Source: Candidatus Latescibacterota bacterium (lineage in GTDB: Bacteria; Latescibacterota; UBA2968; GCA-2709665). From it: a stretch of 64,000 bases of DNA. The stretch lies in assembly GCA_965116875.1 (NCBI GenBank), contig OZ220733.1, forward strand, positions 3,281,803 through 3,345,802, given 5' to 3'. Both the position numbers and the translations under genes were made by a program. Within the stretch, counting starts at the first letter, position 1, and each line of letters opens with the position of its first letter. Below the pieces are notes generated by a model. It ran no database searches. It was not told the origin of the DNA and was given only the letters and a program-made list of their open reading frames with translations. Shown here one piece after another: positions 15,937 through 30,630 of the stretch.

Positions 15937-16475
15937 GACTATGTAGTCCTCTTCCGCGCGGTGATTCAGCCAGATGCGACCACGGCTGGTCGCCAAGCGA
16001 ATTTCTTGGCCGGGATTGAACTGAGTCGTGCCCTATGAGAGTCCATAGACTCGGCCGATACCAAAATAAGTGGAAGAGATCGAACTGAGAGCCAGATATT
16101 GTGTGGTCGGCTTCGGGCAAGAGCTGATTCGTGAAAACGCTACAATGGGATAAGAAAGAAAACGGTCCGGAGGACTCGCATTGAGTTTTGGATCGTTTGA
16201 TAGAGTGACAAACGCCTTCGAATCATTTCGACAGCTGGGTCTATACCTACTGCGCTACTATGGTAGTGTGCTCCGCTCTCAAGGGTCAATTGGGTTGAAA
16301 TCTTCGTGCTGTGTGCGAAAACTTGACAACCGCTGGTCGGCATCATATCTTCAGTTAAATTACAACAGATAACGGAACTTACAAGCATGCAACAGGCCTA
16401 GTTCGGAAAAATCTAAGGCTTGTGCGTTACGATTGGTATGCAGATGTCCCGATTTGCATTGGATGGAGGATTAGT

Positions 16476-17567
16476 ATGAGCGACCAAGATGAACAACTAA
16501 TCCAACACATCGTGGATATTCGCAATAGACTTAGTCAGGGCGAATACGACAGTGAGGCGGCCGTTAGTAACGGTGTTGTCAAGCGGCTGCTCGAGGCGGT
16601 CGGTTGGCCACGGTATGATCAGCAGGTCGTGCGCCATGAGTTCCCGATTGAAACCAGAAAGGTCGACTTCGCGCTCTGTGACCCACCCGGTGAGCCTCGT
16701 GTCTTGATAGAAGTGAAGGCAGTGGGTTCGGCCGATCAGAAAGGAGAAGACCAACTCTTCCAATATTGCTTTCGTAGAGGTGTAAAACTAGCAATCCTCA
16801 CGGACGGACGCACCTGGAAGTTCTATTTTCCGTACGGCGGAGGAGAATATAGTGATAGGCTGTTTCGCAGTTTGGACATTGCTGCCGAGGACGATACCAC
16901 AACTGCTGAGACGTTTATGTGGTTTCTCGCCATCGATGCTGTCAAGTCGGGTGTCACATTTGATAGATGTGAGGAGGCGTATGCAGAATGCCAGTCTCAG
17001 CGCAGAGCGGCCGAAGCATTTGGTTCTGTATGGAATTCCCTGCTTTGTGGATCCGATAAAGGACTCGTGGACATATTTGCCAGAAAAGTCGAAGAAGACA
17101 CTGGAATTCGACCGAAACAACAAACGGTTGTCGAGTTTATAAGGAGGCAAGCCACACAACGATCTGCGGAAACGCACGAATTGACGGGCGGCCCTTCCCA
17201 AAGTGAAACCAGCACAATCCCCTCCTCTCCGTTTTATCGTCTGAACGGTATCACGGTAAATGGTCGGACTGCAAGGGATGTCTATGTCGGAATCTTTCGG
17301 AAATTTGCAGAACAAGACACCAACTTCTGCCAGCGTTATGATAGCACTCAAAAAAAGGGTGGCAAGCGTCTCCAACTTGCGAGGCGCGCGGAGGACCTGT
17401 ATCCTGCGGGTTCTAAGTTAGCCCAAAAGGAAGCCTGCGAATTGCCAGGCGGATGGTGGCTGGCGACCAATCTCGATAACGATCAGAAGAAGAAGCGAAT
17501 TCAACGTGCATGCGACGTGATGGGAATTAAGTACGGACGCGAATTAATCGTTTCCCTATCCAAATAG
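16476..17567 (+). CDS. PD-(D/E)xK nuclease-fold protein (type I restriction R-subunit N-terminal-like domain) with an uncharacterised C-terminal half
   Basis: Track ORF 16422..17567; likely ATG at 16476 (MSDQDEQ). SEAAVSNGVVKRLLEAVGW...RKVDFAL...PRVLIEVKAVG...GEDQLFQY...LAILTDGRTWKFY matches the HSDR_N-type D...ExK pattern from memory. Confidence 0.6.
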   Translation: MSDQDEQLIQHIVDIRNRLSQGEYDSEAAVSNGVVKRLLEAVGWPRYDQQVVRHEFPIETRKVDFALCDPPGEPRVLIEVKAVGSADQKGEDQLFQYCFRRGVKLAILTDGRTWKFYFPYGGGEYSDRLFRSLDIAAEDDTTTAETFMWFLAIDAVKSGVTFDRCEEAYAECQSQRRAAEAFGSVWNSLLCGSDKGLVDIFARKVEEDTGIRPKQQTVVEFIRRQATQRSAETHELTGGPSQSETSTIPSSPFYRLNGITVNGRTARDVYVGIFRKFAEQDTNFCQRYDSTQKKGGKRLQLARRAEDLYPAGSKLAQKEACELPGGWWLATNLDNDQKKKRIQRACDVMGIKYGRELIVSLSK

Positions 17568-17665
17568 CTTCTGAGCAGATCTGTGCGCCTGGCAAACGGT
17601 TCTTGCTAAAGGACCATTCTGATTCACTTTACTCAGGTCACGACTCGTGCAGCGAATCGTCAACG

Positions 17666-18130
17666 ATGAATCTCAGATTCTATGTGGACCCTGAAACAGG
17701 TTCCATTCACATTTACAGACATGGTGTCGAGGAACGTGAAGTCGAAGACGCAATTAGGGTGCGGGGCGAAGTCCGACCTAGAGGGGAGGGATCGCGCGTT
17801 GCAATTGGACGGACTCGCGGAGTCGATATCTCCGACCGATCGATGCGCCGGGACCCCGAACCAAACTGTGCTTATGTCATTACCGCCTACGAGTTGATAG
17901 GTAAACGGCTAATTGCTCTATCGCAGGCGGATGAGAAGGCGAGAAAGATGAGGAACGCCAACAGGTTTCCGGATCGTTGGGACGAGGACCGTGTCCGACG
18001 CCTTCTGGATCATTACGAATCACAGACAGAAGACGAGACAGCGGCGGAAGATGAAGCGGTATTGGAGGATCCAGACAAGACGCTGATGGAAATACCCAAG
18101 AAAATCAGCAAGAATCCAAAAATGACTTAA
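17666..18130 (+). CDS. Degenerate toxin-antitoxin fusion ORF (small toxin-like N-half, antitoxin-like C-half with a replaced C-terminus)
   Basis: MNLRFYVDPETGSIHIYRHGVEEREVEDA...CAYVITAYELIGK resembles a small TA toxin family; I cannot name the family securely. It continues in frame into MRNANRFPDRWDEDRVRRLLDHYESQTEDETAAEDEAVLEDP..., which is homologous to the 26068..26268 product. Confidence 0.45.
   Translation: MNLRFYVDPETGSIHIYRHGVEEREVEDAIRVRGEVRPRGEGSRVAIGRTRGVDISDRSMRRDPEPNCAYVITAYELIGKRLIALSQADEKARKMRNANRFPDRWDEDRVRRLLDHYESQTEDETAAEDEAVLEDPDKTLMEIPKKISKNPKMT
17978..18100. repeat. 123-bp imperfect direct repeat, left copy (inside the antitoxin-like coding sequence)
   Basis: Manual alignment to 26098..26220 gives 109/123 identical, no indels, including a 32-bp identical run cattacgaatcacagacagaagacgagacagc. 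Confidence 0.9.
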
Positions 18131-18177
18131 AAATCCCGGCACCTTGCATTGCGAAATGAACTCCCCGATCAGTAAGG

Positions 18178-18220
18178 CAAACCGCTCAGTCACAATTAAG
18201 TGACTGAGCGGTTTGTTTTT
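18178..18220 (+). terminator. Rho-independent terminator
   Basis: Perfect 16-bp stem caaaccgctcagtcac / gtgactgagcggtttg, 6-nt loop aattaa, then TTTTT. Lies 48 nt downstream of the 17666..18130 stop. Confidence 0.75.
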
Positions 18221-18490
18221 CCAGACTGTTTAAAACCCACTGGAAAAAATTTCTATTTAGTGGCTTTGATAGAGTCTAATTATCGTCAGTTGCAATTGAA
18301 GCCGACGAAACTCCAATATGCCTCTTAATGGCTGAAAGATCATTTTTCAACGCTGAGAGATCTCTTTTAATGACCAGAACATTCTTTTCTATGGCATCAA
18401 GTCGTCCATCTATGCTTAAAGCATAACCGGCTGATCAACCTACCTTGGAGGAACAAGCATTCTGCTTTGCTTTACAATGAAAGAAACTGT

Positions 18491-20215
18491 CTATTTCGCC
18501 TTTAGCCGTAACCATTCGGACTCAGTTAGTCCAACGCGCGATAATTCCCTTCCGAATTGCTCAGCGGCACGTTGCGCATGTTCCGTTTTCAGCTCGGCTA
18601 TCCACTCATAGCCCCTCTCTTCATCATCCCAAAAGACAAATCGATTTCTGTCGTCCTTCGTGGCGCAAAGCGCGTCGTCGTGAGACTTGAAGTGCGAAAC
18701 GAAAACACACGACACCTTGGGACTATGCAATAGTCGGATAAATTCGCCCATGGAGTCGTTGACGCAATGTGTAATTTTACGACCGTCTTCGGCTACACTT
18801 AAGACATTAAATGCAAACGGTTGGCTCTTGCCTTCAATTCTTACACTGTCACACACTGGTTGGAGGCAAAGCAAGTAACGGTTATCGCCGGCCAACTCCC
18901 TAACAATCACGCCCAAATGCAATAATCTCGGAGAATCTCCATATTGTATTCTTTGACTCATTAAGGATGCGAGTTTCTCATTGCATTGAGCTGTTTGACC
19001 ATTGCCCAATAGGTACTCGACTAACTTTATGCGTCCATTTCTGTCATCCTTCCAGATGGGATTGCCGGATTCACCTTGTTCAACTAGACGCCCTACGCGG
19101 CTCCCTCTGAAACTAGAATACTCATACTGAAGATTGGGCCCGTTGCAGAACACATCTTTGACAAAATTGAGACCGTTAGCTCCTTCGCCGATCTTCAATT
19201 CGGCATTTGTGTTTTCTTCCCAGGTTTTCTCGCACCAATCTTCAAGGATTTTTCTTACGCAAACAGCTGATCCTAGAGGCAAATCCCCCAATGTGTCAAT
19301 TAACACGGAATTGAGTTCATCGGTCAATAGGGTTACGATCTGCCGGAAAGCTTCGTCAGGAAGCAGAAGGGCACGGTGAGCCAGAAAGGGTGCATCCAAT
19401 TCTTGGTTGAATCGTGTTAGAATGCGGCGACTATTGTCGCGAATATTCGCGATCCCTCGTAGCACGATTCCCTGCAAGATACCGTTGGTAAGCTGGGAGA
19501 ACTCGCGTATTGTACGCTCAGCCAATTCTGCCTCCGGCACTCGTTCATTTGAAAAATTCGGTTGAGTCACACTTCGAGGTTTTCCGAGTACAACGACCCT
19601 GGCACACTCGGTCGTAAGCACAGGTTGCTCGGATTCACAATCTACACACAGCTGGTGACGATTGAACAAGGCATCGGATATCTCTTTCGCGATTTTCTGG
19701 AGTTCTCTTTCCAGAGTGTAGACAAGCACGAGGCGCAATTGATTCGGTAAATCTGCCTGACTTAGCTTAATGAGGCTTCCAATGAGCTTGATGGCCTTAC
19801 TACCAGATGCATCTCCGAGATCCCAGTCAACAATTGTAACGTCAGCACTCGAGCATAAACCATAGACTTCTGACTCTTCATCGAAAGATGCATTTGCTGG
19901 AGGCTGATACAGCGAACAGATAATCCGCCTCTCGGCGAAACTATTCTGTACATCACGAAATGACGCCTCTTCAAGCTCCTCAGGCATTTGCCCGGCTTCA
20001 TCTTCATTGCCACTCGCTTCGAATGAAGATGTTGGGCTTTTCACCGCTGGCAGGCGTCCCGCTTCCTTTGGATCATCCAGTGGCGTGGGCGGACCCCCAA
20101 TCGCGTCGTCGTATATTCGATCATCAACCAAAACTACAGTCTGGAGATATTGCTCGGCAGAATCATAAACAAACTGTTTGAATGCGGAATTCTTGCTTTC
20201 AGTCATTTTCTTCAT
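18491..20215 (-). CDS. Receiver (REC)-like domain protein with a ~350-aa C-terminal region of unknown function
   Basis: Track ORF 18491..20242. Likely start is ATG 20215 or 20206, overlapping the upstream stop. REC landmarks in track numbering: VVLVDD (36-41), TIVDWDL (Asp139, codon 19828..19826), LVLVYT (Thr176), VVLGKP (Lys221). There is an acidic/Pro-rich insert between beta1 and beta2. I recognise no motif after about aa 230. Confidence 0.7.
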   Translation of the reverse strand: MKKMTESKNSAFKQFVYDSAEQYLQTVVLVDDRIYDDAIGGPPTPLDDPKEAGRLPAVKSPTSSFEASGNEDEAGQMPEELEEASFRDVQNSFAERRIICSLYQPPANASFDEESEVYGLCSSADVTIVDWDLGDASGSKAIKLIGSLIKLSQADLPNQLRLVLVYTLERELQKIAKEISDALFNRHQLCVDCESEQPVLTTECARVVVLGKPRSVTQPNFSNERVPEAELAERTIREFSQLTNGILQGIVLRGIANIRDNSRRILTRFNQELDAPFLAHRALLLPDEAFRQIVTLLTDELNSVLIDTLGDLPLGSAVCVRKILEDWCEKTWEENTNAELKIGEGANGLNFVKDVFCNGPNLQYEYSSFRGSRVGRLVEQGESGNPIWKDDRNGRIKLVEYLLGNGQTAQCNEKLASLMSQRIQYGDSPRLLHLGVIVRELAGDNRYLLCLQPVCDSVRIEGKSQPFAFNVLSVAEDGRKITHCVNDSMGEFIRLLHSPKVSCVFVSHFKSHDDALCATKDDRNRFVFWDDEERGYEWIAELKTEHAQRAAEQFGRELSRVGLTESEWLRLKAK

Positions 20216-23159
20216 TCCAATACAAATAGAATAGAACCCCATCGTCAGGACTTCTATTCAGGTCTAGAGTAAGGGTCATCCCTTCCTTATTTAATACCCT
20301 TTTTGAGATGTAAAGGCCCAGGCCTCGGCCTCGTGGTTTGCGCGAGAATCCCTTTTCAAAAATGGACTCAGCATCTCGACGTGGGATTGGCGGACCGTTG
20401 TTCCCAATGCAATAGGCACTGTCGGTGCAATCTAACTGAATCAGACGTTCACCGGGCTTGTCCTTAAGCCAGAAAATGAAGTTATCCAAAAGATTGACAA
20501 ATACCGGATAAATTGTTGATGGGTACGTGCGAACTATACTATCAACGAAATTCTGTGTCGCATCCAGCTGGATTCTATGACGTTCAAGCCGTACACCGAA
20601 TAGCGCACGAACATAGTAGACGACTTCCTTTCCAGTTATGTCGATTTGTTGACGATATAGTCGCCGCTGTAGAGGCGTAAATAGATTCAAATGAGCATCT
20701 AGATGTTCAAAATTCGTCCTGATTCCGCGGTAGATGGGCTGCAGCCCGTCATTGGCCTTGGCCCACGTTCCGAGTTCTCTCAGATCTCTGCGTATCATCT
20801 TGATTACAGCCTCGAATTCATGGTTTATTACCGCAATCGCAAGTCCCATTTGGACTAGCTCTTCATCCGTATCAGCCTTTTCTTGTAGGGCGTAAAGTTC
20901 AGTTTCCAGGGCTTCTGCGATGTCGAGTTGGCTAATGTCCGTTCCTTCATTAATCCCGTCAGCAATACCTGTCAACATTTCGCGAACACCTTCAAGTCTG
21001 CCAGTGTTCCTTAAGGCTACAGCATCGATTCGTTGTTGGTAGTCTGACCTTATGTCCTCGATCTGCTTTGGCTGTAGATCGCTGAGGTCGCTGTGAGCAA
21101 GATTTAACTCGATTTCTGCAATTACGTTACGCAATTCCCGCAGGGATGCATTAGTCGCACTAATAGAAGCGCGTCGTGCATCTCCTGCTGCTTGCCGTAA
21201 CGCGCTCGATTCAATGCGTAAAGCTGTGTTCTGCGTATCGGCGGCATTTTGAATGAGCTCTTGAATGCGTCGACGTTGGTCAATATGGATATTCGCTATT
21301 TCCGCCGTTGATACAAGTGATTCCCCCACTTGCTTTGCAAAAGGAGCAAAGACATCAGCTTCAAGTCTGTCGCGTTCCCTCTGATACGCTTCCCAATCGC
21401 CGGTAAGCCTCTTGGTCAAACCGACGCCTCGGGGCCGAGTTATTGAATACTTCGCCCGCATCTCTTCGAGCTCCCGATTGGCTTCCCGTTCTGTGTCAAG
21501 AAGCTCGGCGGATGCAATGTCAGGATCACCATTCTCAGATGCTGTTTTCATCCTATCTTGTATATGTTGCAGAAGTTCCGCGATTTCGAATTCGGGTAAA
21601 GCATCTTGTGTTTTGGCAAAAAACATTTCAAGTGCAGTGGCAAGCCTGGCTCGCTTTGCAGTTGTCTGTTTTTCTCTATTCCTGCGGGCACGTTCCAACC
21701 GATCGAGTTCGTCCTTGCGTTCGTGAAAATAGTCTCCTTGGGGCGCTTCTTTGCGAAAAAAATCGGCCGCCAACTGAATGAATACGTTTTCCAACACGCT
21801 TTTGAACTGCTTGTAAGCCTTGTTTTTTTGGAAACCTTCACGCCCCGCTTTTTCTTTTAGTGCCGCGTTGTTCTCTTTCGTGAGGCACACCGCACCATAT
21901 ATCCGCCTATACGAAAAGAAGTAGTAACCCATACCTTTGTTTCGGCGCAACTCGATATCGAGCCAATCTATATCCGAATTGCCGTAAGGGAGGATTCGAA
22001 TCATATCCCGGTAAACGTAGAGCCCGCCGATCCTGTCTAGTTTTTCATTCAGCCTAGTCCAGTCTTCAGGATCCGCCATGCTTTCCCGTTGAATACCTTG
22101 CAAATAGCCAAATTCCAGCTGGAATGGGCCACATGCCGTCGGCTTGCCGCCGCCATCCTTCCATGAGACAATATGATCAGGGAATTCTTGGTCATAAACC
22201 CTTACCTTTCCCCTAAATTGGCCGTATTCATCAATATTGCCACTGACGAACTGATCGGACAGAGCTAAGTCTTCGTTGGTAAAAAACTCATTTGGACCGA
22301 TCAGATCCTCATGCGATGTATCTGTAGGCCAAAAACGGAATGCTGTTTCTAAAGGCAGAGGGTTATCCACCCCAAACGTCCGATTGCAGAAACCTAGAAG
22401 ACACTTGCTGAATTCGTTGGTTCCGTCCGATTGCTCTGACTTGATGTCCGCAAGAATAGTTTCGTCAGCAGGTGCAATATAAAAATGTGTGCCGCTCTCA
22501 CAATTAGCGAGCGAGAGACCCTCAATAGTTCGCTCAAAATTTCGCGGATCGACCTGAAAGCCGGCAATATCCGAAAGAATGCTCGAAAGGTCACACCATG
22601 GGAAATCTCTTTGAAGTTGATTGACATTGGTAGCGTTCTCGTTCAATAAATCGACGATATCCTCATTTGCCGGGAGATTGCCTTCTGGAACGCATCTGAT
22701 AGGGATTTCAATATCCTCTAAATTAACGGATGGTTGTCCGAATAGCCCCCAATGAACATAACACATGACGAGATTGCCGCGATGCCCTTCTCGTGCGGAC
22801 CTCGTTAGCACAAGAACTTGCCGCCCAAGGAATGCGATCGCAAGTCGCCCGATTCCCTTCTCTCCCATGATAGCGCGCTCTGGCTTGTCAGCCGGCCGGA
22901 ACTCCGTACCCTGCGGCGATCTGACCTTACTATCCGTACCAAGGACCAACCATTTCGACTCGAATTCCTCACGCGACATTCCAACCCCATCATCACGAAT
23001 GACTAGGAGCGAATCAGAACCGAAGAAGTCCACTTCAACATGATCTGCATAGGCATCGTGAGCATTCTTAAATAGCTCATTAATGGCGGTGGAGGCGTCG
23101 GCGATTTGCTGCCTTCCCAGCATATCAACCGCTCGCGCTTTTGTTCGGAATCTAGCCAT
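20199..23159 (-). CDS. Hybrid GHKL protein: N-terminal MutL/MORC/Hsp90-type ATPase module, coiled coil, then histidine-kinase DHp + CA core
   Basis: 986 aa. N-terminal Bergerat motifs NELFKNAHDA (27-36), DDGVGM (56-61), GEKGIGRL (99-106). Charged heptad-like region at about 480-770. H-box GLAIAVINHEFEAVI (His780, codon 20822..20820). N-box VFVNLLDNFIFW, GNNGPPI, IFEKGFS, GRGLGLYIS at 886-951. No TM segment seen. Confidence 0.8.
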   Translation of the reverse strand: MARFRTKARAVDMLGRQQIADASTAINELFKNAHDAYADHVEVDFFGSDSLLVIRDDGVGMSREEFESKWLVLGTDSKVRSPQGTEFRPADKPERAIMGEKGIGRLAIAFLGRQVLVLTRSAREGHRGNLVMCYVHWGLFGQPSVNLEDIEIPIRCVPEGNLPANEDIVDLLNENATNVNQLQRDFPWCDLSSILSDIAGFQVDPRNFERTIEGLSLANCESGTHFYIAPADETILADIKSEQSDGTNEFSKCLLGFCNRTFGVDNPLPLETAFRFWPTDTSHEDLIGPNEFFTNEDLALSDQFVSGNIDEYGQFRGKVRVYDQEFPDHIVSWKDGGGKPTACGPFQLEFGYLQGIQRESMADPEDWTRLNEKLDRIGGLYVYRDMIRILPYGNSDIDWLDIELRRNKGMGYYFFSYRRIYGAVCLTKENNAALKEKAGREGFQKNKAYKQFKSVLENVFIQLAADFFRKEAPQGDYFHERKDELDRLERARRNREKQTTAKRARLATALEMFFAKTQDALPEFEIAELLQHIQDRMKTASENGDPDIASAELLDTEREANRELEEMRAKYSITRPRGVGLTKRLTGDWEAYQRERDRLEADVFAPFAKQVGESLVSTAEIANIHIDQRRRIQELIQNAADTQNTALRIESSALRQAAGDARRASISATNASLRELRNVIAEIELNLAHSDLSDLQPKQIEDIRSDYQQRIDAVALRNTGRLEGVREMLTGIADGINEGTDISQLDIAEALETELYALQEKADTDEELVQMGLAIAVINHEFEAVIKMIRRDLRELGTWAKANDGLQPIYRGIRTNFEHLDAHLNLFTPLQRRLYRQQIDITGKEVVYYVRALFGVRLERHRIQLDATQNFVDSIVRTYPSTIYPVFVNLLDNFIFWLKDKPGERLIQLDCTDSAYCIGNNGPPIPRRDAESIFEKGFSRKPRGRGLGLYISKRVLNKEGMTLTLDLNRSPDDGVLFYLYWNEEND

Positions 23160-24267
23160 TTTTTAGATCCGCTGTCTTGACGTGGTCGTTGAAATGTAGA
23201 CCGAATGCTTTTGCAACAGGTACTGGAACCGCATTACCTATCTGACGCGCCATGGATGCCAGTGAACCTGTAAACTCGAAACTATCTGGAAATCCCTGAA
23301 GGCGGGCTGCCTCGCGTACTGATATGGCACGGTCTTGCTTTGGGTGGCCGAATCTTCCGTTTGAATAACTGATGCAGCGCGTCGTTAAACCGGGTGCAGG
23401 CTCGTCCCACGCAAGTCGTGTGTAACAGTCCGAATGGCCATTGTAGCGTTTTCCGTTTTCCTTCAAGGTATAGCATTTCGGCAGGAGCGACTCGGGCCAG
23501 TCCCGACGCCCGTTTTCGTGGGTCTTCCTGATCCGCTTTAGATTCAGATCGGAAAGTGCAGCAGCGCGGTGATTCGGGTATTTTTGTTCATCTGGATGCT
23601 CTGTGCCTTGCTTAATAGTTGGAAGATCTTCTATCGCATCCCTAACCGTTCTATACGCTACGTTTCGATCTCGTCCGTGAGTTGGCTCAGGAAGTGCGAT
23701 CTTACCAAGAAGACTTGCCACTAGAACTAGCCTTCTGCGAACCTGCGGCACTCCATAGTCCTGCGCGAAGATTATACCGTAATCGATATTGTAACCGTCT
23801 CTATCCAATTGATCGACCAAATGTGAAAACGGGTTGTGATTCTCGACGGACACACTTCGAAAACCAGGGACATTTTCAACGAATACCAATTCTGGCAAAC
23901 AATCATGGACAATCGACGAGAAATGTCCCAAAAGACCATGACGATTGTCTTCGGATAACTCCTGCTTAGAATTCGTTTTTTGTTTAGTGAAGGGCTGACA
24001 AGGAGGACAGCCACAGAACAATTTCACCTCGGATTCGCAGCTATAGTAGGCATTTATCCGTTCTGCACTTACTACTTCAATCGGCTCGTTGATCACCGAA
24101 GCACCTTTAAAATTCTTCTTGAATGTACCGACAGCATCAGGACACGAATCAACTGCAAGCGCGTGTTCAATTCCGGATTCGTGAAAACCTAAGCTGGTTC
24201 CGCCGCAACCGGAAAAGAAGTCGAATACTCGAATGGGTATATTAGGGGGCATTTTCGAGCTTGTCAC
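23152..24267 (-). CDS. dcm: DNA (cytosine-5)-methyltransferase
   Basis: 371 aa. Motif I FDFFSGCGGTSLGF, motif IV GCPPCQPFT, motif VI FVENVPGF, motif VIII QDYGVPQVRRRLVLV, motif X GNAVPVPVA. Confidence 0.95.
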   Translation of the reverse strand: MTSSKMPPNIPIRVFDFFSGCGGTSLGFHESGIEHALAVDSCPDAVGTFKKNFKGASVINEPIEVVSAERINAYYSCESEVKLFCGCPPCQPFTKQKTNSKQELSEDNRHGLLGHFSSIVHDCLPELVFVENVPGFRSVSVENHNPFSHLVDQLDRDGYNIDYGIIFAQDYGVPQVRRRLVLVASLLGKIALPEPTHGRDRNVAYRTVRDAIEDLPTIKQGTEHPDEQKYPNHRAAALSDLNLKRIRKTHENGRRDWPESLLPKCYTLKENGKRYNGHSDCYTRLAWDEPAPGLTTRCISYSNGRFGHPKQDRAISVREAARLQGFPDSFEFTGSLASMARQIGNAVPVPVAKAFGLHFNDHVKTADLKNG

Positions 24268-24281
24268 ACTGATTCCTGCCT

Positions 24282-24761
24282 TTAGGGCAGTTGAGCGGGC
24301 ATCGGACCAGAGATTTCAATTGTTTCACGGGCCGACATTAGGAATCGACCAAGCCGAATGCACACTCGACCGAGTGCCTCGTGTCGGTCGATGCCTGGTC
24401 TGCGCACAGAACATTCCCAGATGATAGCAACTCGCCAGCCAAGGCATCGTAGTTCGCAAATAGATTTCAAATCTCGCGCTCTATTGTCTTCTAGTTTCTT
24501 GCGCCACCAGTTTGCTCGTGTATGCGGTATCTTGGATCTCGCGCATCCATGATTGTGCCAGAAGCAGCCGTTAACGAATATGACCACCGAGTATTTTGGC
24601 AGCACTATGTCCGGCTTTCCAGGCAAATCTTTGCGATGCAGCCGGTAGCGAAAGCCTTGGGCGAAGAGACTCCGCCGTACTTCAGTTTCAAGCTTGCTAT
24701 TCTTGCCACCAACCGCCGACATCATCCTGCTTCGAGTTTGTTTGTCAACGAAGTCAGTCAA
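24282..24761 (-). CDS. vsr: Very-short-patch repair endonuclease
   Basis: 159 aa. SRMMSAVGGKNSKLETEVRRSLFAQGFRYRLH..LPGKPDIVLPKY.VVIFVNGCFWHNHGC...NWWRKKLEDNRARD...GWRVAIIWEC is the classical Vsr pattern. Sits 14 nt upstream of dcm. Confidence 0.9.
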   Translation of the reverse strand: MTDFVDKQTRSRMMSAVGGKNSKLETEVRRSLFAQGFRYRLHRKDLPGKPDIVLPKYSVVIFVNGCFWHNHGCARSKIPHTRANWWRKKLEDNRARDLKSICELRCLGWRVAIIWECSVRRPGIDRHEALGRVCIRLGRFLMSARETIEISGPMPAQLP

Positions 24762-24982
24762 TTAGCCGGCCCTACAATTCTTGTACTTTGATTGTCGAAT
24801 GACCCATAATTAATGCGAATATAGGAATGTTAATCAGTTGGACCAATCGTGTTTGTCCAGATTTCCTGAACGGTACACCTTACCCCGCGGAAGTCCACAC
24901 TACTTAAGTGTCAACACTATCACCTTTTCTACGCCGAAATACTCGAATCGAAGTTTCAAACCATCGAACTCTTCTTTGCCCT

Positions 24983-25906
24983 TTATTTTATCCTTAATTC
25001 GAATGCCAGCGGTTCCAATTTGTCTGGCTGGATTGTCCACGGACTTACTAACACGAGGTTTCCGCCCCTTCCGATCGGTGGATCAGTACTTCGCGTTAGT
25101 TTAATGTCCGACACGACTGCAAGTAGTGTATTCGGCGATTTCGCACGAGCGAGAGCGACCTCGTTTCTGGTAACGATGATCTTTTCGCCTTTGCCGGTCG
25201 TCCCTTTAACTTCAACAAACAGCTCGTCACCATTCGAATAGCAGATAAAGTCACAAGATTCCGTTGCCGAAACGTCTTTTACGTTGGGCCAATCGATCGA
25301 CAGGTGATCTTGAACAACGTGCATTGCTCGCAGCTCGATCGCCCGACGTTCTTGCGCATTGAGATGTCGGCCCTGTCCTTGGCTCTTGCGAAGTGGGCGC
25401 ACGATTGGGCTAATCTCCTCATCAGAAACAGAGATGATTGGATGTTGGGCTAACATCGATGCCGCCTCATGGACATTAGTCGGGAGACCGGAGACATAGA
25501 ACCTCATACGCTTATTGTTATTGCCGGGAAATCTTGCGCTTGGTTTTTGACCAATTGAACGTTGTGACCTGCACAGAGCCCTTCGTAACGCTTGAGAATC
25601 AATTGAGCGAATGTCAATTGGGAATGAATCGACCGCTAACCTCCGGTTTTCTCTCGATAAACCCATTCGTTGTGTGGTCTTTGTATCGACCACGGCATCC
25701 TCGAGGAAACAGCCGCTTCGCGCTAGGCGGCTTAAGAGCAACTCAACCCCTTGGTTATATTCGGCATTTCTCTCGTTCGGTCCACCGATCGAACCCCCTC
25801 GTGATTCTACCACAACGGAAGTCTCTCCGTCTGCAAACTCAACCGAAAACTGCGCCTTTATCGGATTTCCGATTCTGTCGCAGACCGTCTGGAGGCCGCT
25901 TGTCAT
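24983..25906 (-). CDS. DUF3883-like (PD-(D/E)xK-type) nuclease-domain protein with an uncharacterised N-terminal domain; candidate restriction or effector nuclease
   Basis: 307 aa. C-terminal ERRAIELRAMHVVQDHL...SCDFICYSNGDELFVEVKGTTGKGEKIIVTRNEVALARAKSPNTLLAVVSDI matches the D...EVK...T.NE pattern of DUF3883-type domains from memory. I do not recognise the N-terminal ~190 aa. Confidence 0.55.
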   Translation of the reverse strand: MTSGLQTVCDRIGNPIKAQFSVEFADGETSVVVESRGGSIGGPNERNAEYNQGVELLLSRLARSGCFLEDAVVDTKTTQRMGLSRENRRLAVDSFPIDIRSIDSQALRRALCRSQRSIGQKPSARFPGNNNKRMRFYVSGLPTNVHEAASMLAQHPIISVSDEEISPIVRPLRKSQGQGRHLNAQERRAIELRAMHVVQDHLSIDWPNVKDVSATESCDFICYSNGDELFVEVKGTTGKGEKIIVTRNEVALARAKSPNTLLAVVSDIKLTRSTDPPIGRGGNLVLVSPWTIQPDKLEPLAFELRIK

Positions 25907-26067
25907 AGTTGTCTTCCTCAGCTAACATTACAATCCAAATGTTCCGCCCAAAGCTAGGCGTTTGTGACGATCCTGATGTAATCAAAAAGGGTACGATCTG
26001 CTGAGTTCTTGGTGAGCCGTCTTTCTCTTCGTGATACCAAATATATCCTATAGATAGGAGATTATGG

Positions 26068-26268
26068 GTGAAATATGCGTCCAGATTTCCGAAAGGCTGG
26101 GACGAGGACCGCGTCCGACGCCTCCTGAAACATTACGAATCACAGACAGAAGACGAGACAGCTGCGGAGGATGAAGCGGTAATAGAGGATCCAAGCCAGA
26201 CACTTATGGCAATACCCAAGGCTCTGGTTCCTTCAGTACAAGCGCTTCTGGCGCAACGCGACGAGTGA
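26068..26268 (+). CDS. Small antitoxin-like protein (orphan; no toxin gene adjacent)
   Basis: 66 aa, GTG start with AGGAG 8 nt upstream. RFPKGWDEDRVRRLLKHYESQTEDETAAEDEAVIEDPSQTLMAIPKALVPSVQALL is homologous to the C-half of 17666..18130. Confidence 0.5.
   Translation: MKYASRFPKGWDEDRVRRLLKHYESQTEDETAAEDEAVIEDPSQTLMAIPKALVPSVQALLAQRDE
26098..26220. repeat. 123-bp imperfect direct repeat, right copy
   Basis: See 17978..18100. Confidence 0.9.
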
Positions 26269-26305
26269 ACTCAAGTTACTTTCTCGATCCCGTCTTTCCC
26301 GCCCA

Positions 26306-26965
26306 TCAACCTCCCGTGCCGTCAGACAATCGCTGTCTGTATCTGATTAAATCCTCGCGGGTTATGGCGTCCGGCGGGACCAATTGATACTGTTTCTCCG
26401 CGACGATTCGTATTTCGTCACCGTCCTCCTCAAATTCCATCAGTGCAATAACATCCTGCTGCATGAATTGCGCGCCGATGGGCCGGCAGATCAGGTCTGG
26501 TAATTTGTCCGCACAAAGCGCGATGTCCTGCTCAATCTGAATCCTGCTGAGTCTATCGTTACCACCTTTGGCCTGGACGGGTATCACGTAATGCGAACCA
26601 CTCTTGTCAACACCCACGTAGATTTCGTCGGTTTCGACCTGACCCAACTTCTGCACGGTCGTACGGAGATGGTTTTGCAGTGAGTAACACGCGATACCAA
26701 GGAAGATGTCGATAAGGCGATTGTATCGCACCCGGGCCAGTACAGCCTGTTCATCACCAAACGCATATTTCGCGATGATTCCCGGTGTGGAGTCCGGCAC
26801 TTTGGTCACCGAGAGATTCGGATTCGGCGTGAGCGGATTATCGGTGGCGAGTTCAAACCTGTATTTGCCTCTGCCCGCGCCCCGGATGATCCACGTTTCT
26901 TTGTCCGGTGCCGTACTCCGAATACTGTCGGGGAGTTGTGTCCTGTAGCGGAAACTGTAGACCAC
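26306..26965 (-). CDS. Candidate type II restriction endonuclease (partner of the adjacent methyltransferase)
   Basis: Track ORF (GTG 26965). Possible PD-(D/E)xK-like core ETDEIYVGVD...VIPVQAKGG. The frame stays open and protein-like for 50 more codons upstream (ISTTNRYSAIIEAIFQARYQPGQREVDFVREDIETTASELNIDLPKNLGDV), back to TGA 27121..27119, so the real start is probably near 27115 (see findings). Confidence 0.5.
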   Translation of the reverse strand: MVYSFRYRTQLPDSIRSTAPDKETWIIRGAGRGKYRFELATDNPLTPNPNLSVTKVPDSTPGIIAKYAFGDEQAVLARVRYNRLIDIFLGIACYSLQNHLRTTVQKLGQVETDEIYVGVDKSGSHYVIPVQAKGGNDRLSRIQIEQDIALCADKLPDLICRPIGAQFMQQDVIALMEFEEDGDEIRIVAEKQYQLVPPDAITREDLIRYRQRLSDGTGG

Positions 26966-27132
26966 GTCGCCAAGGTTCTTCGGTAAGTCAATGTTGAGTT
27001 CGGAGGCAGTCGTTTCAATGTCTTCTCGTACAAAATCGACTTCACGTTGTCCCGGCTGATACCTGGCTTGAAAAATGGCTTCGATGATCGCTGAATAGCG
27101 GTTTGTGGTGGAGATAAATCACTCCTCTCTTT

Positions 27133-28425
27133 TCAATCGCCCGGCCATTCCAGCGTCACAACCTCTTCTCTGAGCTGTTCGCCCGTTACCGTTGAAGGCC
27201 TGGTTCGAAACAGATCGATCCCGGTGACATTGTAGCCCTGCGATTTGGCGATGCCGGCCAGGAGTTCGCCCGTTCTGATCATCACCCGAAGATAGGATGC
27301 CTGGTCACCCACCACGTAAGCGAGCTTTGCACCCGGTCTCAATGCCGGCCTGAGAGATGCGAAATGCTTCGCCATCCCCCCGAAATATAGCAGAGTGACC
27401 CGGGAGTACTGGCGCTCGAAACCTGATGTCTTGCCCAGAGAGACTCGGCGTCTTTCAATTTCATCCGCCAGATTTCGTATTGCGAGATTGTCCGCGATCT
27501 CCAGGTCGTCTGTGTCGGCTTTGTATACACCGCGAGTGTTGGACCTGACCAGGTTTTGTTTCAACATCCTCAATTCTTGCCTGTTCCTGATCATGCCAAG
27601 GATGACCGACTCCAGACGGGTCGTCCTGGTGTAATCCTTCTCGTTGGGATATGGCGGGGAAGTAATTACGAAATCTACCGAACCCGGTTTCAGGATGTTT
27701 TCGACGCTCCGAGCGTCTGCATTGAAAATCCGGCTGTCGACTCGTGCCCTGTCACCATATTGCCGAATGTCTCGGGCAGTCGCCCGGATGCATTCGAGCC
27801 ACGCGTCCACGACCGGTGCATCATATTTGATTTTCCCGACCCCGACTTCCGGCCCGAATTTGAGATTGCTGATGCGGTTCACGAGCGCGTTGGCGAGACA
27901 GAGGCGTCCGTAGCGCTGAAAATGATGATCCCCCAACCTGTCGATTGCATTCAGAAGAACGAGTGCCTTGTGCAGGGGACGGGGGCTGATGGAGTCCTTC
28001 AACAGGATTTTCGTCCTTTCATCAGGAAGTTGTTTCAGTACTGTTTTCGAATTTCCATTTTCGGCGAATAGCGGAAGATCTTCCCATTCACCAAAGCCGT
28101 TATTGTCCAGCGTTTTCTTCGTGGACATCGCTACTTCTTCCGCGTACTCGAGCAACTCCCTGTGATTCACAGTCCAGTCCACCTTTACCGAACTTGCGAA
28201 ATACGCCATCGGATTCGGCTCGATTCCGATGCTGCCGATTCCGAGCTTTTTGCACTCAACGGCCGTGGTCCCCGTCCCGCAAAACGGATCAAGGACGGTG
28301 TGGGATGTTCCAACTTCGAACCTTTCGAGATACTCACGGACCAGATGAGGCGGAAATGACAGCACGAACCGGTACCAGTCATGAACTGCTCTGTCTTCGG
28401 TTCTGAGTTTGTTTAAATCCTTCAT
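27133..28425 (-). CDS. Site-specific DNA methyltransferase (N4-cytosine or N6-adenine), SPPY motif
   Basis: 430 aa. AdoMet motif VLDPFCGTGTTAVE near the N-terminus and catalytic VDFVITSPPYPNEKDY about 210 aa later (alpha-type order, target-recognition region between them). Confidence 0.85.
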   Translation of the reverse strand: MKDLNKLRTEDRAVHDWYRFVLSFPPHLVREYLERFEVGTSHTVLDPFCGTGTTAVECKKLGIGSIGIEPNPMAYFASSVKVDWTVNHRELLEYAEEVAMSTKKTLDNNGFGEWEDLPLFAENGNSKTVLKQLPDERTKILLKDSISPRPLHKALVLLNAIDRLGDHHFQRYGRLCLANALVNRISNLKFGPEVGVGKIKYDAPVVDAWLECIRATARDIRQYGDRARVDSRIFNADARSVENILKPGSVDFVITSPPYPNEKDYTRTTRLESVILGMIRNRQELRMLKQNLVRSNTRGVYKADTDDLEIADNLAIRNLADEIERRRVSLGKTSGFERQYSRVTLLYFGGMAKHFASLRPALRPGAKLAYVVGDQASYLRVMIRTGELLAGIAKSQGYNVTGIDLFRTRPSTVTGEQLREEVVTLEWPGD

Positions 28426-30505: not shown

Positions 30506-30630
30506 CCGCCATCGGGAGGTTCGAGATTCAGGATCGCCATCGGTCGTACGTTCACGCGATGGGGTTTCGAACGGTGCGAATCCGAATCAGGTATTGACGG
30601 TCTGTCGGCTTTTTTCAGAAGTGACAACAA

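What the first reader, a model, noticed from the sequence alone, without database searches (positions are those of the whole stretch)
20199..23159. Single 986-aa polypeptide carrying two different Bergerat-fold ATPase modules
Seen in sequence:
- Residues ~20-120 carry the N-box/G1/G2 pattern of MutL/MORC/Hsp90-type GHKL ATPases.
- Residues ~770-986 carry a canonical DHp His (His780, codon 20822..20820) and a kinase CA domain.
- No transmembrane or periplasmic sensor segment is present.
- A ~300-aa heptad-rich linker separates the two modules.

Inference: the usual sensor domain of a histidine kinase is replaced by a second ATP-driven clamp-type module of the kind that acts on DNA in MutL/MORC proteins. 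That would couple a DNA- or nucleotide-dependent conformational cycle to autophosphorylation. I regard this domain combination as unusual.
Basis: partly seen in the sequence, partly recalled or inferred. Interest (0 to 1): 0.75.

Follow-up and report, generated by a model that had tools for sequence, protein, structure and literature searches.

The report
Known methylase-linked double-ATPase histidine kinase
The 986-residue protein really does join a MutL/MORC-type ATPase to a histidine-kinase core, but this architecture and its fixed partners (a cytosine methylase and an unusual response regulator) were noted in 2008 and described in 2021; what the system does is still untested.

Summary
ORF 20199..23159(-) encodes a soluble 986-aa protein. 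It has an N-terminal GHKL ATPase plus transducer (residues 1-~470), a ~300-aa helical linker, a DHp domain with His780, and a C-terminal kinase CA domain. Every catalytic motif of both ATP sites is invariant across 87 homologues.

The combination is not new. It is Pfam HEF_HK (PF19191) "group 1" of Bellieny-Rabelo et al. 2021, and Orlowski & Bujnicki recorded it in 2008 as the putative restriction gene R.EcoUTORF4938P. I found the family in 544 of 185,579 species genomes, including archaea.

Here it sits in a translationally coupled operon, vsr-dcm-HK-RR, inside a low-GC defence island. In related loci a C5-methylase lies directly upstream in 74/74 cases, and a Response_reg_2 protein lies directly downstream in 73/73. 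No other gene is conserved.

The most likely reading is a self-contained restriction-modification-like conflict module. In it the DNA-clamp ATPase gates a His-Asp phosphorelay to an effector of unknown fold, whose beta domain is hypervariable. That mechanism is inferred, not shown. The effector domain could not be assigned.

Verdict: already known architecture, function open, moderate interest.

The parts
24282..24761 (-). vsr: very-short-patch-repair endonuclease, first gene of the operon (TTG start). It is an accessory gene, present in 51 of 79 related loci.
   Evidence: Pfam Vsr 2.6e-30. NCBIfam TIGR00632, 138 bits against a cut-off of 97.85. PADLOC Vsr 5e-34. Frequency and position in related loci. 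The gene was not called in the public record of this contig.
23152..24267 (-). dcm: C5-cytosine DNA methyltransferase. Its TAG stop overlaps the kinase start (ATGGCTAG).
   Evidence: Pfam DNA_methylase 1.5e-57. PADLOC MTase_II 1.2e-87. Junction sequence. A dcm lies directly upstream of the kinase, on the same strand, in 74/74 related loci that have enough flank.
20199..23159 (-). The finding: a 986-aa GHKL-HEF_HK-HATPase_c protein, i.e. a soluble 'double Bergerat' histidine kinase.
   Evidence: It is 100% identical to a database protein that was called from Met13 (P0121). Residues 1-12 are conserved in homologues, so ATG 23159 is the likelier start.
22380..23159 (-). GHKL ATP-binding domain (residues 1-260). 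Motif I is E28/N32/D35, motif II is D56-G58-G60, motif III is G99-G104 and motif IV is G223-T224. It also carries a conserved N-terminal strap.
   Evidence: Pfam PF13589. These residues are invariant in the 87-sequence alignment A4. Codons checked. Foldseek matches to SMCHD1, Hsp90, MORC3 and MutL.
21750..22379 (-). Transducer-like alpha/beta domain (residues 261-470), with invariant LPYGN (390-394) and the EKAGREGF loop (436-443, K437).
   Evidence: Foldseek alignments of about 500 columns to the GHKL+middle modules of Hsp90, SMCHD1, MORC3 and GyrB. Conservation. The role of K437 as a gamma-phosphate sensor is inference.
20925..21749 (-). Long helical linker (residues 471-745). It is the most variable part of the protein.
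   Evidence: AF2 helices 475-518, 521-541, 546-570, 583-621, 628-689 and 697-737. Heptad signal is patchy. Mean pairwise identity is 27-35%, against 50-58% for the other regions.
20652..20924 (-). DHp domain (residues 746-836) with phospho-acceptor His780 (codon 20822..20820), then Glu781 and Phe782. Position H+4 is Ala784, so the T/N phosphatase motif is absent.
   Evidence: Pfam HEF_HK 2.7e-27. Alignment to ThkA 3a0r places His780 on the phospho-His. Codon checked. This is the most conserved region of the protein. The absence of the phosphatase motif across PF19191 is also noted in bioRxiv 10.64898/2026.02.27.708494.
20202..20651 (-). Kinase catalytic (CA) domain (residues 837-986). N box is N889/N893, G1-like box is N920-N921-G922, F box is F934 and G2 box is G944-G946-G948.
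   Evidence: Pfam HATPase_c 5.7e-14. PDB sequence hits to ThkA, MprB, ZraS and WalK. These residues are invariant in A4.
18491..20206 (-). Partner response regulator (571 aa from ATG 20206; the mechanical ORF runs up to 20242). Its start overlaps the kinase stop (ATGACTGA). It has three parts: a REC domain (residues 1-215), a helical domain (222-420) and a beta-rich domain plus conserved tail (425-571).
   Evidence: Pfam Response_reg_2, 111.9 bits against a cut-off of 27. REC hallmarks D28, D29, D127 (codon 19828..19826), T164 and K209 are at least 92% conserved in 69 diverse homologues. AF2 model with pLDDT 77.8 and pTM 0.75. An RR gene lies directly downstream of the kinase in 73/73 related loci.
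18494..18934 (-). Response-regulator output beta domain and C-terminal tail (residues 425-571). C447, C452 and D453 are invariant; R456, W535, R557, W565 and R567 are nearly invariant. The rest is hypervariable. This is the candidate effector or recognition domain, and its fold is unassigned.
   Evidence: Conservation. Hypervariability: 37-50% identity where the kinases are 83-92% identical. No Pfam or PDB sequence match. Only weak MazF/PemK-like fold hits, which hhalign does not support.

Best explanation
The gene is a typical member of the published HEF_HK / Response_reg_2 'two-component-like' family. It works as the middle component of a self-contained, horizontally mobile module, dcm - GHKL-kinase - response regulator, with vsr as a frequent accessory.

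Proposed mechanism; every step is inferred:
1. The Dcm methylase marks host DNA.
2. The N-terminal MutL/MORC-like GHKL+transducer module dimerises in an ATP-dependent way as a clamp. It does so on DNA that is foreign or unmodified. Recognition may be supplied by the Dcm, to which the kinase is translationally coupled.
3. That conformational change is carried through the long helical linker into the DHp helix.
4. The C-terminal CA domain phosphorylates His780.
5. The phosphoryl group passes to Asp127 of the dedicated response regulator.
6. Phosphorylation releases the regulator's C-terminal output domains (helical plus hypervariable beta domain). These act on nucleic acid or otherwise arrest the invader or the cell.

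The lack of the H+4 phosphatase motif suggests a one-way trigger rather than a reversible signalling switch.

What is shown: the domain anatomy, the intact catalytic motifs, the strict gene linkage, the co-evolution of kinase and regulator, and the location in a defence island. What is inferred: DNA sensing, phosphotransfer, the nature of the effector, and the defence role.
For: Identity and anatomy:
- Pfam hits are far above their cut-offs.
- Structure matches to GHKL clamp ATPases and to histidine kinases.
- All motifs of both ATP sites and the HE(F) box are invariant in 87 sequences.
- The REC acidic pocket, Thr and Lys are conserved.

Module autonomy:
- dcm lies directly upstream in 74/74 related loci and the RR directly downstream in 73/73.
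- Clustering every ORF in 79 loci finds no other gene family in more than 6 loci, apart from vsr and antisense shadow ORFs.
- In a Pantoea plasmid the trio stands alone among housekeeping genes.
- In a Rhizobium plasmid the order is permuted but the set is kept: HK-RR-dcm-vsr.
- Both junctions are 8-nt start/stop overlaps.

Mobility and conflict signature:
- 544 species genomes across many phyla plus archaea.
- The module sits in a 46-53% GC island within a ~60% GC genome.
- That island also holds a complete Type II R-M system and nuclease-like genes.

Evolution:
- Kinase and RR co-evolve (Spearman 0.78).
- dcm is exchanged between near-identical kinases (rho 0.14; for example HK 92% against Dcm 53%). 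This fits recognition supplied by the methylase.
- The RR beta domain is hypervariable.

Precedents:
- GHKL domains occur in proven or putative restriction enzymes. NCBIfam BbrUII/HgiDII matches the N-terminus at 5.8e-17. R.HgiDII and R.EcoUTORF4938P are discussed in PMC2441816.
- paraMORC families are linked to R-M systems (PMC2292703).
- A GHKL-nuclease (VcSduA) is validated as anti-phage (PMC12137116).
Against: - No nuclease or other recognisable effector domain was found in either protein. The RR output region has no Pfam, NCBIfam, PADLOC or PDB sequence match and only weak fold hits.
- No experiment on this family was found in the literature searched.
- Exchange of dcm between near-identical kinases is hard to square with a classical Type II scheme, where R and M recognise the site independently.
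- About 10% of complete E. coli genomes keep an N-terminally truncated kinase plus RR without an adjacent dcm. The pair is therefore not always lethal without its methylase, although that copy lacks the GHKL module.
- The 80 loci compared are the best matches to this protein (at least 41% identity), so the strict gene order may hold only for this subfamily.
Confidence: 0.55

Rival explanations
1. It is an ordinary regulatory two-component system. The kinase senses an intracellular cue such as nucleotide level. The response regulator is then a transcription factor that tunes expression of dcm/vsr or of neighbouring restriction-modification genes. This is the speculation offered in the 2021 paper.
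For: - The kinase core and REC domain are canonical.
- The RR output region is unassigned, so it could bind DNA.
- The authors report up-regulation of the Pectobacterium homologues in planta, and they suggest control of R-M systems (PMC8011034).
Against: - No HTH, winged-helix or other DNA-binding family was detected in 67 diverse output regions.
- The output beta domain is hypervariable between close relatives. That is atypical of a regulator bound to a fixed operator.
- No target genes other than dcm are conserved next to it.
- The H+4 phosphatase motif needed for reversible signalling is absent.
- The module spreads by horizontal transfer as a fixed trio.
Confidence: 0.2
2. It is a specialised very-short-patch repair accessory. 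The MutL-like GHKL module would recruit or stimulate Vsr at T:G mismatches created by deamination of Dcm-methylated cytosines. The kinase and RR would add regulation.
For: - vsr is present in 51/79 related loci, usually on the same strand.
- E. coli MutL is known to interact functionally with Vsr (cited in PMC2292703).
- The N-terminus matches MutL structurally (1b62, TMt 0.52).
Against: - vsr is absent from about a third of loci, whereas dcm and the RR are always present.
- vsr commonly accompanies any dcm gene.
- The idea gives no role to the phosphorelay or to the hypervariable RR domain.
- The N-terminus matches SMCHD1, Hsp90 and MORC at least as well as it matches MutL.
Confidence: 0.08
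3. It is a selfish addiction module with no anti-phage role. The kinase-RR pair would be a toxin kept silent by Dcm methylation. Loss of the element would then kill the cell, which stabilises the island.
For: - The obligate methylase linkage and the mobile, patchy distribution fit this.
- The weak MazF/PemK-like fold hits for the RR C-terminal domain, found in two independent libraries, would also fit a toxin.
Against: - Genomic data cannot separate this from the defence reading. Many R-M systems do both.
- The MazF resemblance is weak (E 0.1-0.7) and hhalign does not support it.
- E. coli keeps a dcm-less truncated remnant.
Confidence: 0.12

Closest known systems
HEF_HK / Response_reg_2 'two-component-like' family (Pfam PF19191 and PF19192; Bellieny-Rabelo, Pretorius & Moleleki 2021, PMC8011034)
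   Same: - The architecture is identical: HATPase_c_3 + HEF_HK + HATPase_c, the paper's 'group 1', 174 of 222 sequences.
- The protein is soluble.
- A Response_reg_2 gene is adjacent, with C5-methylase and Vsr nearby.
- This protein scores 95.5 bits on HEF_HK and its partner 111.9 bits on Response_reg_2.
   Different: Nothing structural differs; it is a plain member.

This analysis adds four things to the paper:
- the strict trio without any other conserved gene;
- methylase exchange between near-identical kinases;
- hypervariability of the RR beta domain;
- the structure-level GHKL+transducer assignment.
R.EcoUTORF4938P subfamily of putative Type II restriction enzymes with an N-terminal GHKL domain (Orlowski & Bujnicki 2008, PMC2441816)
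   Same: It is described there as an N-terminal GHKL domain plus a C-terminal histidine-kinase-type GHKL domain with conserved N, D, F and G motifs, and an unassigned middle part. REBASE lists it as the putative R gene beside a methylase.
   Different: I did not compare the sequences directly. The identification rests on the matching description. The restriction activity was never demonstrated (the name carries REBASE's 'P', putative).
MORC / paraMORC GHKL+S5 ATPases of restriction-modification systems (Iyer, Abhiman & Aravind 2008, PMC2292703); MutL, Hsp90, SMCHD1
   Same: - An N-terminal Bergerat-fold ATPase with motifs I-IV followed by a transducer-like domain.
- Foldseek E of about 1e-8 over about 500 columns.
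- Linkage to cytosine methylases and Vsr.
   Different: - Sequence similarity is limited to the ATP-binding motifs.
- The MORC-specific signature was not tested.
- No helicase or recognisable nuclease partner is present.
- The C-terminus is a kinase core. The findings read from that paper include no paraMORC family with a kinase core.
BbrUII/HgiDII family restriction enzymes (NCBIfam NF050001)
   Same: The N-terminal ~120 residues match (5.8e-17; PADLOC REase_II 7.9e-11). Those enzymes also pair with C5-methylases.
   Different: The score is 61.5 bits against a cut-off of 550, so it is not a member. Only the GHKL head aligns. The rest of HgiDII is an unassigned domain, not a kinase.
Detocs defensive two-component system (Rousset et al. 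2023, bioRxiv 10.1101/2023.01.24.525353)
   Same: It is a precedent for a His-Asp phosphorelay used for anti-phage defence, with a response regulator carrying an enzymatic effector. The gene composition (DtcA/B/C, nucleosidase effector) is from my own knowledge; I did not read the paper.
   Different: - No PADLOC model other than REase_II and MzaB touches the kinase, and none touches the RR.
- There is no buffer receiver protein, no nucleosidase effector and a different sensor.
- Linkage to a methylase is unique to the present family.
VcSduA, a GHKL-Shedu (paraMORC3) nuclease (PMC12137116)
   Same: A GHKL ATPase controls a defence effector, and mutants of either site abolish protection.
   Different: In VcSduA the effector is a fused PD-(D/E)xK nuclease. 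Here the GHKL is fused to a kinase, and the presumed effector is a separate phospho-accepting protein.
Classical HisKA-type kinases such as ThkA (3a0r) and HK853
   Same: The DHp His-Glu box and the CA domain match. phmmer gives 4.8e-8 to ThkA, with His780 aligned to the phospho-His and the same NxGPPIP G1 variant. Foldseek TMt is 0.5-0.57.
   Different: - There is no PAS, HAMP or transmembrane sensor.
- The family has an HEF box.
- There is no T/N at position H+4.

Membership tests
HEF_HK / Response_reg_2 family (PF19191, PF19192) | HEF_HK DHp domain scoring above the Pfam gathering threshold, with conserved His-Glu-Phe | tested here: met
   95.5 bits against a cut-off of 24.1, covering profile positions 1-67 of 67. 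H780 and E781 are invariant and F782 is nearly invariant.
HEF_HK / Response_reg_2 family (PF19191, PF19192) | Group 1 architecture: HATPase_c_3 + HEF_HK + HATPase_c, no transmembrane region | tested here: met
   All three domains are above their cut-offs. Maximum hydropathy is 1.38. The architecture is defined in PMC8011034.
HEF_HK / Response_reg_2 family (PF19191, PF19192) | Adjacent Response_reg_2 gene and nearby C5-methylase | tested here: met
   The RR scores 111.9 bits against a cut-off of 27, and its start overlaps the kinase stop. The dcm stop overlaps the kinase start. The same arrangement holds in 73/73 and 74/74 related loci.
GHKL (Bergerat-fold) ATPases | Motifs I (ExxxNxxD), II (DxGxG), III (GxxGxG) and IV (GT) in the N-terminal module | tested here: met
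   E28/N32/D35, D56/G58/G60, G99-G104 and G223-T224 are invariant in 87 sequences. PF13589 scores 51.9 bits.
GHKL (Bergerat-fold) ATPases | Bergerat fold followed by a transducer domain, as in clamp-type members | tested here: met
   Foldseek alignments of about 500 columns to SMCHD1 (8e-9), Hsp90, MORC3, GyrB and MutL. These rest on a predicted model, not a solved structure.
GHKL (Bergerat-fold) ATPases | ATP-dependent N-terminal dimerisation and ATP hydrolysis | not testable with these tools
   Only indirect evidence: the 20-residue N-terminal strap is highly conserved.
MORC family sensu stricto (Iyer et al. 2008) | The MORC-specific sequence motif that unifies the family, plus an S5-fold domain | not tested
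   The paper states that paraMORCs lack this motif. I did not have the motif definition to test. MORC3 is only one of many equally good fold hits.
Histidine protein kinases (HisKA type) | H box His followed by an acidic residue on DHp helix 1; N, G1, F and G2 boxes in the CA domain | tested here: met
   H780-E781; N889/N893; N920-N921-G922 (the G1 Asp is replaced by Asn, as in ThkA in the alignment); F934; G944/G946/G948.
Histidine protein kinases (HisKA type) | Autophosphorylation on His and transfer to the Asp of a cognate receiver | not testable with these tools
   Supported only by kinase-RR co-evolution (rho 0.78) and conserved REC residues D28, D29, D127, T164 and K209.
Histidine protein kinases (HisKA type) | Phosphatase motif (T/N at position H+4) | tested here: not met
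   Position 784 is Ala, invariant in the 51-sequence alignment A3. The same is noted for PF19191 as a whole in bioRxiv 10.64898/2026.02.27.708494. This feature defines bifunctional kinases, not kinases as such.
Restriction-modification system | A DNA methyltransferase genetically linked to the restriction component | tested here: met
   A Dcm (1.5e-57) is translationally coupled to the kinase and is linked in 74/74 related loci.
Restriction-modification system | A recognisable endonuclease domain, or demonstrated cleavage of unmodified DNA | tested here: not met
   No nuclease family was found in the kinase or the RR by Pfam, NCBIfam, PADLOC, PDB profiles or Foldseek. No other gene is conserved nearby. 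Cleavage activity cannot be tested here.
BbrUII/HgiDII restriction enzyme family (NF050001) | Full-length match above the curated cut-off | tested here: not met
   61.5 bits against a cut-off of 550; only residues 9-125 align.
Detocs | DtcA/DtcB/DtcC gene set with a nucleosidase effector (composition from my own knowledge of the system) | tested here: not met
   No PADLOC hit to any Detocs model for the kinase or the RR, assuming PADLOC-DB 2.0.0 includes Detocs models, which I did not verify. No third receiver gene is conserved.

The most novel reading that the evidence does not exclude
The trio would be a distinct class of restriction-modification or defence system gated by a phosphorelay.
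- The Dcm supplies sequence recognition, as Mod does in Type III systems. This would explain why methylases can be swapped between near-identical kinases.
- The MORC/MutL-like clamp reports unmodified DNA.
- The answer is delivered by His-to-Asp phosphotransfer to an effector with a new fold. Its recognition or toxin surface would be under diversifying selection.
Probability: 0.3. Interest if true: 0.8.

Novelty: already known. Interest (0 to 1): 0.38.

Why it matters
The domain combination is not a discovery. It has Pfam entries and two papers, so the finding as written adds nothing new.

The open part is function. This is a very widespread, horizontally mobile three-gene module. It occurs in hundreds of species across bacteria and archaea, and a remnant is present in about 10% of complete E. 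coli genomes. It links DNA methylation, a chromatin-type clamp ATPase and a His-Asp phosphorelay, and I found no experiment on it.

If the defence reading holds, it would be a second example, after Detocs, of two-component signalling used for immunity. As far as I know it would be the first tied to epigenetic self-marking. Its response regulator would also carry an effector fold not yet in any database.

The mutants needed are obvious: E28, H780, N893, RR D127 and RR D453. The question is therefore directly testable.

Tried and rejected
- **PD-(D/E)xK reading of the RR C-terminus (D453 ... E538-L-K540).** Rejected. Position 538 is E in 34 and Q in 26 of 69 sequences, and the predicted domain is almost all beta.
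- **MazF/CcdB homology of the RR beta domain.** Foldseek gives weak hits in two libraries: 7bye_C with prob 0.96 and TMt 0.61, E. coli MazF with TMt 0.53-0.60, and a phage PemK/MazF with TMt 0.51. hhalign of the 66-sequence profile against MazF and CcdB found nothing (probability below 1%). I keep this only as a lead.
- **Sequence-profile assignment of the RR output region.** hmmscan of 67 diverse members against Pfam at E up to 1 gave no family shared by more than 2 members. Profile searches against PDB sequences gave nothing below E 0.1.
- **Dcm-kinase fusion protein P0294 (1365 aa) as Rosetta-stone evidence.** Rejected. Its methylase part is garbled and lacks a normal catalytic motif region, so it looks like a frameshift or assembly artefact.
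- **Promoter and terminator scan of the operon.** Counts are at the level of the shuffled control, so it is uninformative.
- **Search for a fourth conserved gene, such as a separate nuclease.** None was found. The recurrent small 'families' are antisense shadow ORFs inside the kinase gene.
- **Search for alternative effector fusions among distant RR relatives.** The best 150 of 1496 representatives are mostly ~520-600 aa, apart from apparent fragments, and none of the 150 listed is long enough to carry an added domain.
- **Organism identification.** This failed. The cluster look-up returned no names and the window has no tRNA.
- **Literature search for experiments on this family.** Six searches found none.
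Full report
**Observation**

The ORF at 20199..23159 on the minus strand is real and encodes 986 residues. Pfam finds three domains, all well above their gathering scores:
- HATPase_c_3, residues 23-122, 51.9 bits;
- HEF_HK, residues 770-836, 95.5 bits;
- HATPase_c, residues 881-981, 52.9 bits.

No 19-residue window exceeds a mean hydropathy of 1.38, so there is no membrane segment.

**Structure**

I built an AlphaFold2 model on 87 homologues (mean pLDDT 79.6). It shows:
- an alpha/beta N-terminal module to about residue 470;
- six long helices from 475 to 737;
- a 59-residue helix (744-802) that carries His780;
- a CA domain from 839 to 981.

Foldseek against the PDB aligns about 500 N-terminal columns to the ATPase modules of SMCHD1 (E 8e-9), many Hsp90s, MORC3 (TMt 0.52), GyrB and MutL (TMt 0.52). 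It aligns about 230 C-terminal columns to HK853, WalK and ZraS. The N-terminal unit is therefore a complete GHKL-plus-transducer clamp module, not only residues 20-120.

All motifs of both ATP sites are invariant in the 87-sequence alignment:
- N-terminal site: E28, N32, D35; D56, G58, G60; G99-G104; G223-T224.
- Kinase site: N889, N893, G922, G944, G946, G948, plus H780-E781.

The first 20 residues are almost invariant. That fits the exchanged N-terminal strap of clamp-type GHKL enzymes, and it argues for the ATG at 23159 rather than Met13 as the start. Heptad periodicity in the linker beats a shuffled control only in patches.

**Context in the window**

The gene is the third of four tightly packed minus-strand genes:
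- vsr, 24282..24761;
- a C5-cytosine methylase, 23152..24267;
- the kinase;
- a 571-aa protein starting at ATG 20206, which matches Pfam Response_reg_2 (111.9 bits).

The dcm stop overlaps the kinase start (ATGGCTAG), and the kinase stop overlaps the regulator start (ATGACTGA). The operon lies in a 46-53% GC stretch (about 16-28 kb) of a roughly 60% GC window. That stretch also holds a complete Type II R-M pair, a NOV_C/DUF3883 protein and an HSDR_N-like protein. It is a small defence island.

**It is already described**

The two Pfam families were created by Bellieny-Rabelo, Pretorius and Moleleki (2021, PMC8011034). They report the following:
- HATPase_c_3 + HEF_HK + HATPase_c is the predominant architecture, 174 of 222 sequences.
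- Linkage to the Response_reg_2 gene is 91.6%.
- None of the kinase-like (OG_5) sequences has a predicted membrane region.
- C5-methylases, Vsr and other R-M domains are enriched nearby.
- They suggest the HATPase_c_3 domain acts as the sensor and that the family branched from paraMORCs.

Earlier, Orlowski and Bujnicki (2008, PMC2441816) noted that the putative REBASE restriction gene R.EcoUTORF4938P has an N-terminal GHKL domain and a C-terminal histidine-kinase-type GHKL domain with intact N, D, F and G motifs. Iyer, Abhiman and Aravind (2008, PMC2292703) described the wider paraMORC radiation in R-M systems. I found no experimental study of this family. A 2026 paper lists a HATPase + REC system only among unvalidated predictions.

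**How common it is**

- Two word-indexed searches returned 4518 and 4767 clusters. The first search used E <= 1e-5 and the second E <= 1e-20. Nearly all of the 240 listed hits carry all three domains; the few exceptions are truncated or lack one.
- A scan of one genome per species found relatives in 544 stretches of 185,579 genomes. These span Proteobacteria, Acidobacteriota, Verrucomicrobiota, Bacteroidota, Chloroflexota, Nitrospira and Methanosarcina/Methanoperedens archaea.
- The partner regulator has 1496 representatives at 50% clustering. The best 150 are mostly ~520-600 aa, apart from apparent fragments.

**What the comparison adds**

*Gene set.* In 79 related loci, dcm is directly upstream on the same strand in 74/74 loci with enough flank. 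The regulator is directly downstream in 73/73. vsr is present in 51. Clustering all ORFs of at least 90 aa in these loci shows no other family in more than 6 loci, apart from antisense shadows of the kinase gene. Distant relatives on plasmids (26-28% identity) keep the same set:
- HK-RR-dcm-vsr in Rhizobium;
- dcm-HK-RR alone among transport genes in Pantoea.

The trio is therefore self-contained, and any effector must lie in the kinase or the regulator.

*Evolution.* Kinase and regulator co-evolve (Spearman 0.78). The methylase does not track them (0.14). For example, loci L006 and L013 have kinases 92% identical and methylases 53% identical. The regulator evolves much faster than the kinase. 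Its beta domain (425-540) is the fastest part:
- It falls to 37-50% identity where the kinases are 83-92% identical.
- It falls to 37% where the methylases are 98% identical (L023/L025).
- The last 30 residues and a few residues stay fixed: C447, C452, D453, R456, W535, R557, W565 and R567.

**The regulator**

Its REC domain keeps the acidic pair D28/D29, the acceptor D127, T164 and K209. It has a disordered, poorly conserved insertion at 34-80. The output part is a helical domain (222-420) and a beta-rich domain with a C-terminal helix (425-571).

I could not assign the output part:
- No Pfam, NCBIfam, PADLOC or PDB-sequence match was found.
- Foldseek gives only weak MazF/PemK-like hits for about 130 columns, in both the PDB and the viral library.
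- hhalign does not support those hits.
- A PD-(D/E)xK reading fails, because position 538 alternates between E and Q.

**Most likely mechanism (inferred)**

The module is a restriction-modification-like conflict system.
1. Dcm marks self DNA.
2. The clamp ATPase responds to unmarked or foreign DNA.
3. The signal passes through the helical linker to the DHp.
4. His780 is phosphorylated and passes the phosphoryl group to Asp127 of the regulator.
5. The regulator's output domains then act.

Three observations shape this reading:
- Methylases are interchangeable between near-identical kinases, and the genes are translationally coupled. This suggests the methylase may supply sequence recognition, as Mod does in Type III systems.
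- The missing T/N at H+4 (Ala784) suggests a kinase without phosphatase activity, that is, a trigger rather than a rheostat.
- Precedents exist for each half: GHKL heads on restriction enzymes, a GHKL-controlled defence nuclease, and a defensive two-component system, Detocs.

The main weakness is that no effector activity can be named.

**Rivals**

- An ordinary regulatory two-component system, which is the 2021 authors' suggestion.
- A Vsr-assisting repair module.
- A purely selfish addiction module.

The first is weakened by the hypervariable output domain, the lack of any DNA-binding family and the absence of conserved target genes. The second is weakened by the frequent absence of vsr. The third cannot be separated from defence by sequence alone.

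**Verdict**

The novelty claim fails: this is a typical member of a published family, and function remains open. Interest is moderate, because the system is widespread, mechanistically unusual and easy to test, but the finding itself adds no new fact.

Noticed in passing
window 26306..28425 (-): A second, independent and complete Type II R-M pair lies next to the operon. It consists of an N6/N4 methyltransferase (27133..28425) and a 219-aa restriction enzyme (26306..26965). The restriction enzyme matches PADLOC REase_II PDLC03404 at 8.5e-96 but has no Pfam family.
   Followed up: partly
window 24983..25906 (-): A 307-aa protein has a C-terminal NOV_C/DUF3883 domain (4e-10) and a weak N-terminal match to a Type IV methyl-directed restriction model (7e-4). 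It lies directly upstream of vsr. It is not conserved with the trio in other loci.
   Followed up: partly
window 16422..18130 (+): A 381-aa protein has an HSDR_N_2 nuclease-like N-terminus (3.4e-6) and a sub-threshold SeqA C-terminal match (0.005). This may be a methylation-reading nuclease. It is followed by a 175-aa ORF with no family. Both lie inside the low-GC island and neither is conserved with the trio.
   Followed up: no
window ~16000..28000: A low-GC island (46-53% GC against about 58-66% on either side) holds all the R-M-type genes. No tRNA or integrase was seen at its edges. A second dip in GC (51-56%) lies at 52-62 kb and was not examined.
   Followed up: partly
window 24282..24761 (-); L001 8333..8575: The vsr gene has a TTG start and a full-length Vsr match. 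It was not called in the public record of this contig, where an 80-aa antisense ORF was called instead.
   Followed up: yes
L086 6122..9590 (E. coli SCU-152); L085 2738..6332: 573 of 5426 complete E. coli genomes carry a remnant of a related module in an island at ssrA. It consists of a kinase truncated at its N-terminus (no GHKL head), in the one locus inspected next to an IS3 element, plus an intact Response_reg_2 gene. In that locus no dcm lies within the 6 kb flanks shown.
   Followed up: partly
RR residues 34-80 (window 19967..20107): A ~47-residue disordered, Ser/Glu/Pro-rich insertion follows the acidic pocket of the REC domain (pLDDT below 50). Its length is conserved but its sequence is not (13% mean identity).
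   Followed up: no
P0294 (ENA metagenome protein, 1365 aa): This is an apparent Dcm-kinase fusion. The methylase half is garbled, so it is probably a frameshift or assembly artefact rather than a true fusion.
   Followed up: yes
window 30367..32571: Two long ORFs overlap on opposite strands: 722 aa on the minus strand and 646 aa on the plus strand. The plus-strand one is the gene called in the public record, and it has no Pfam family.
   Followed up: no
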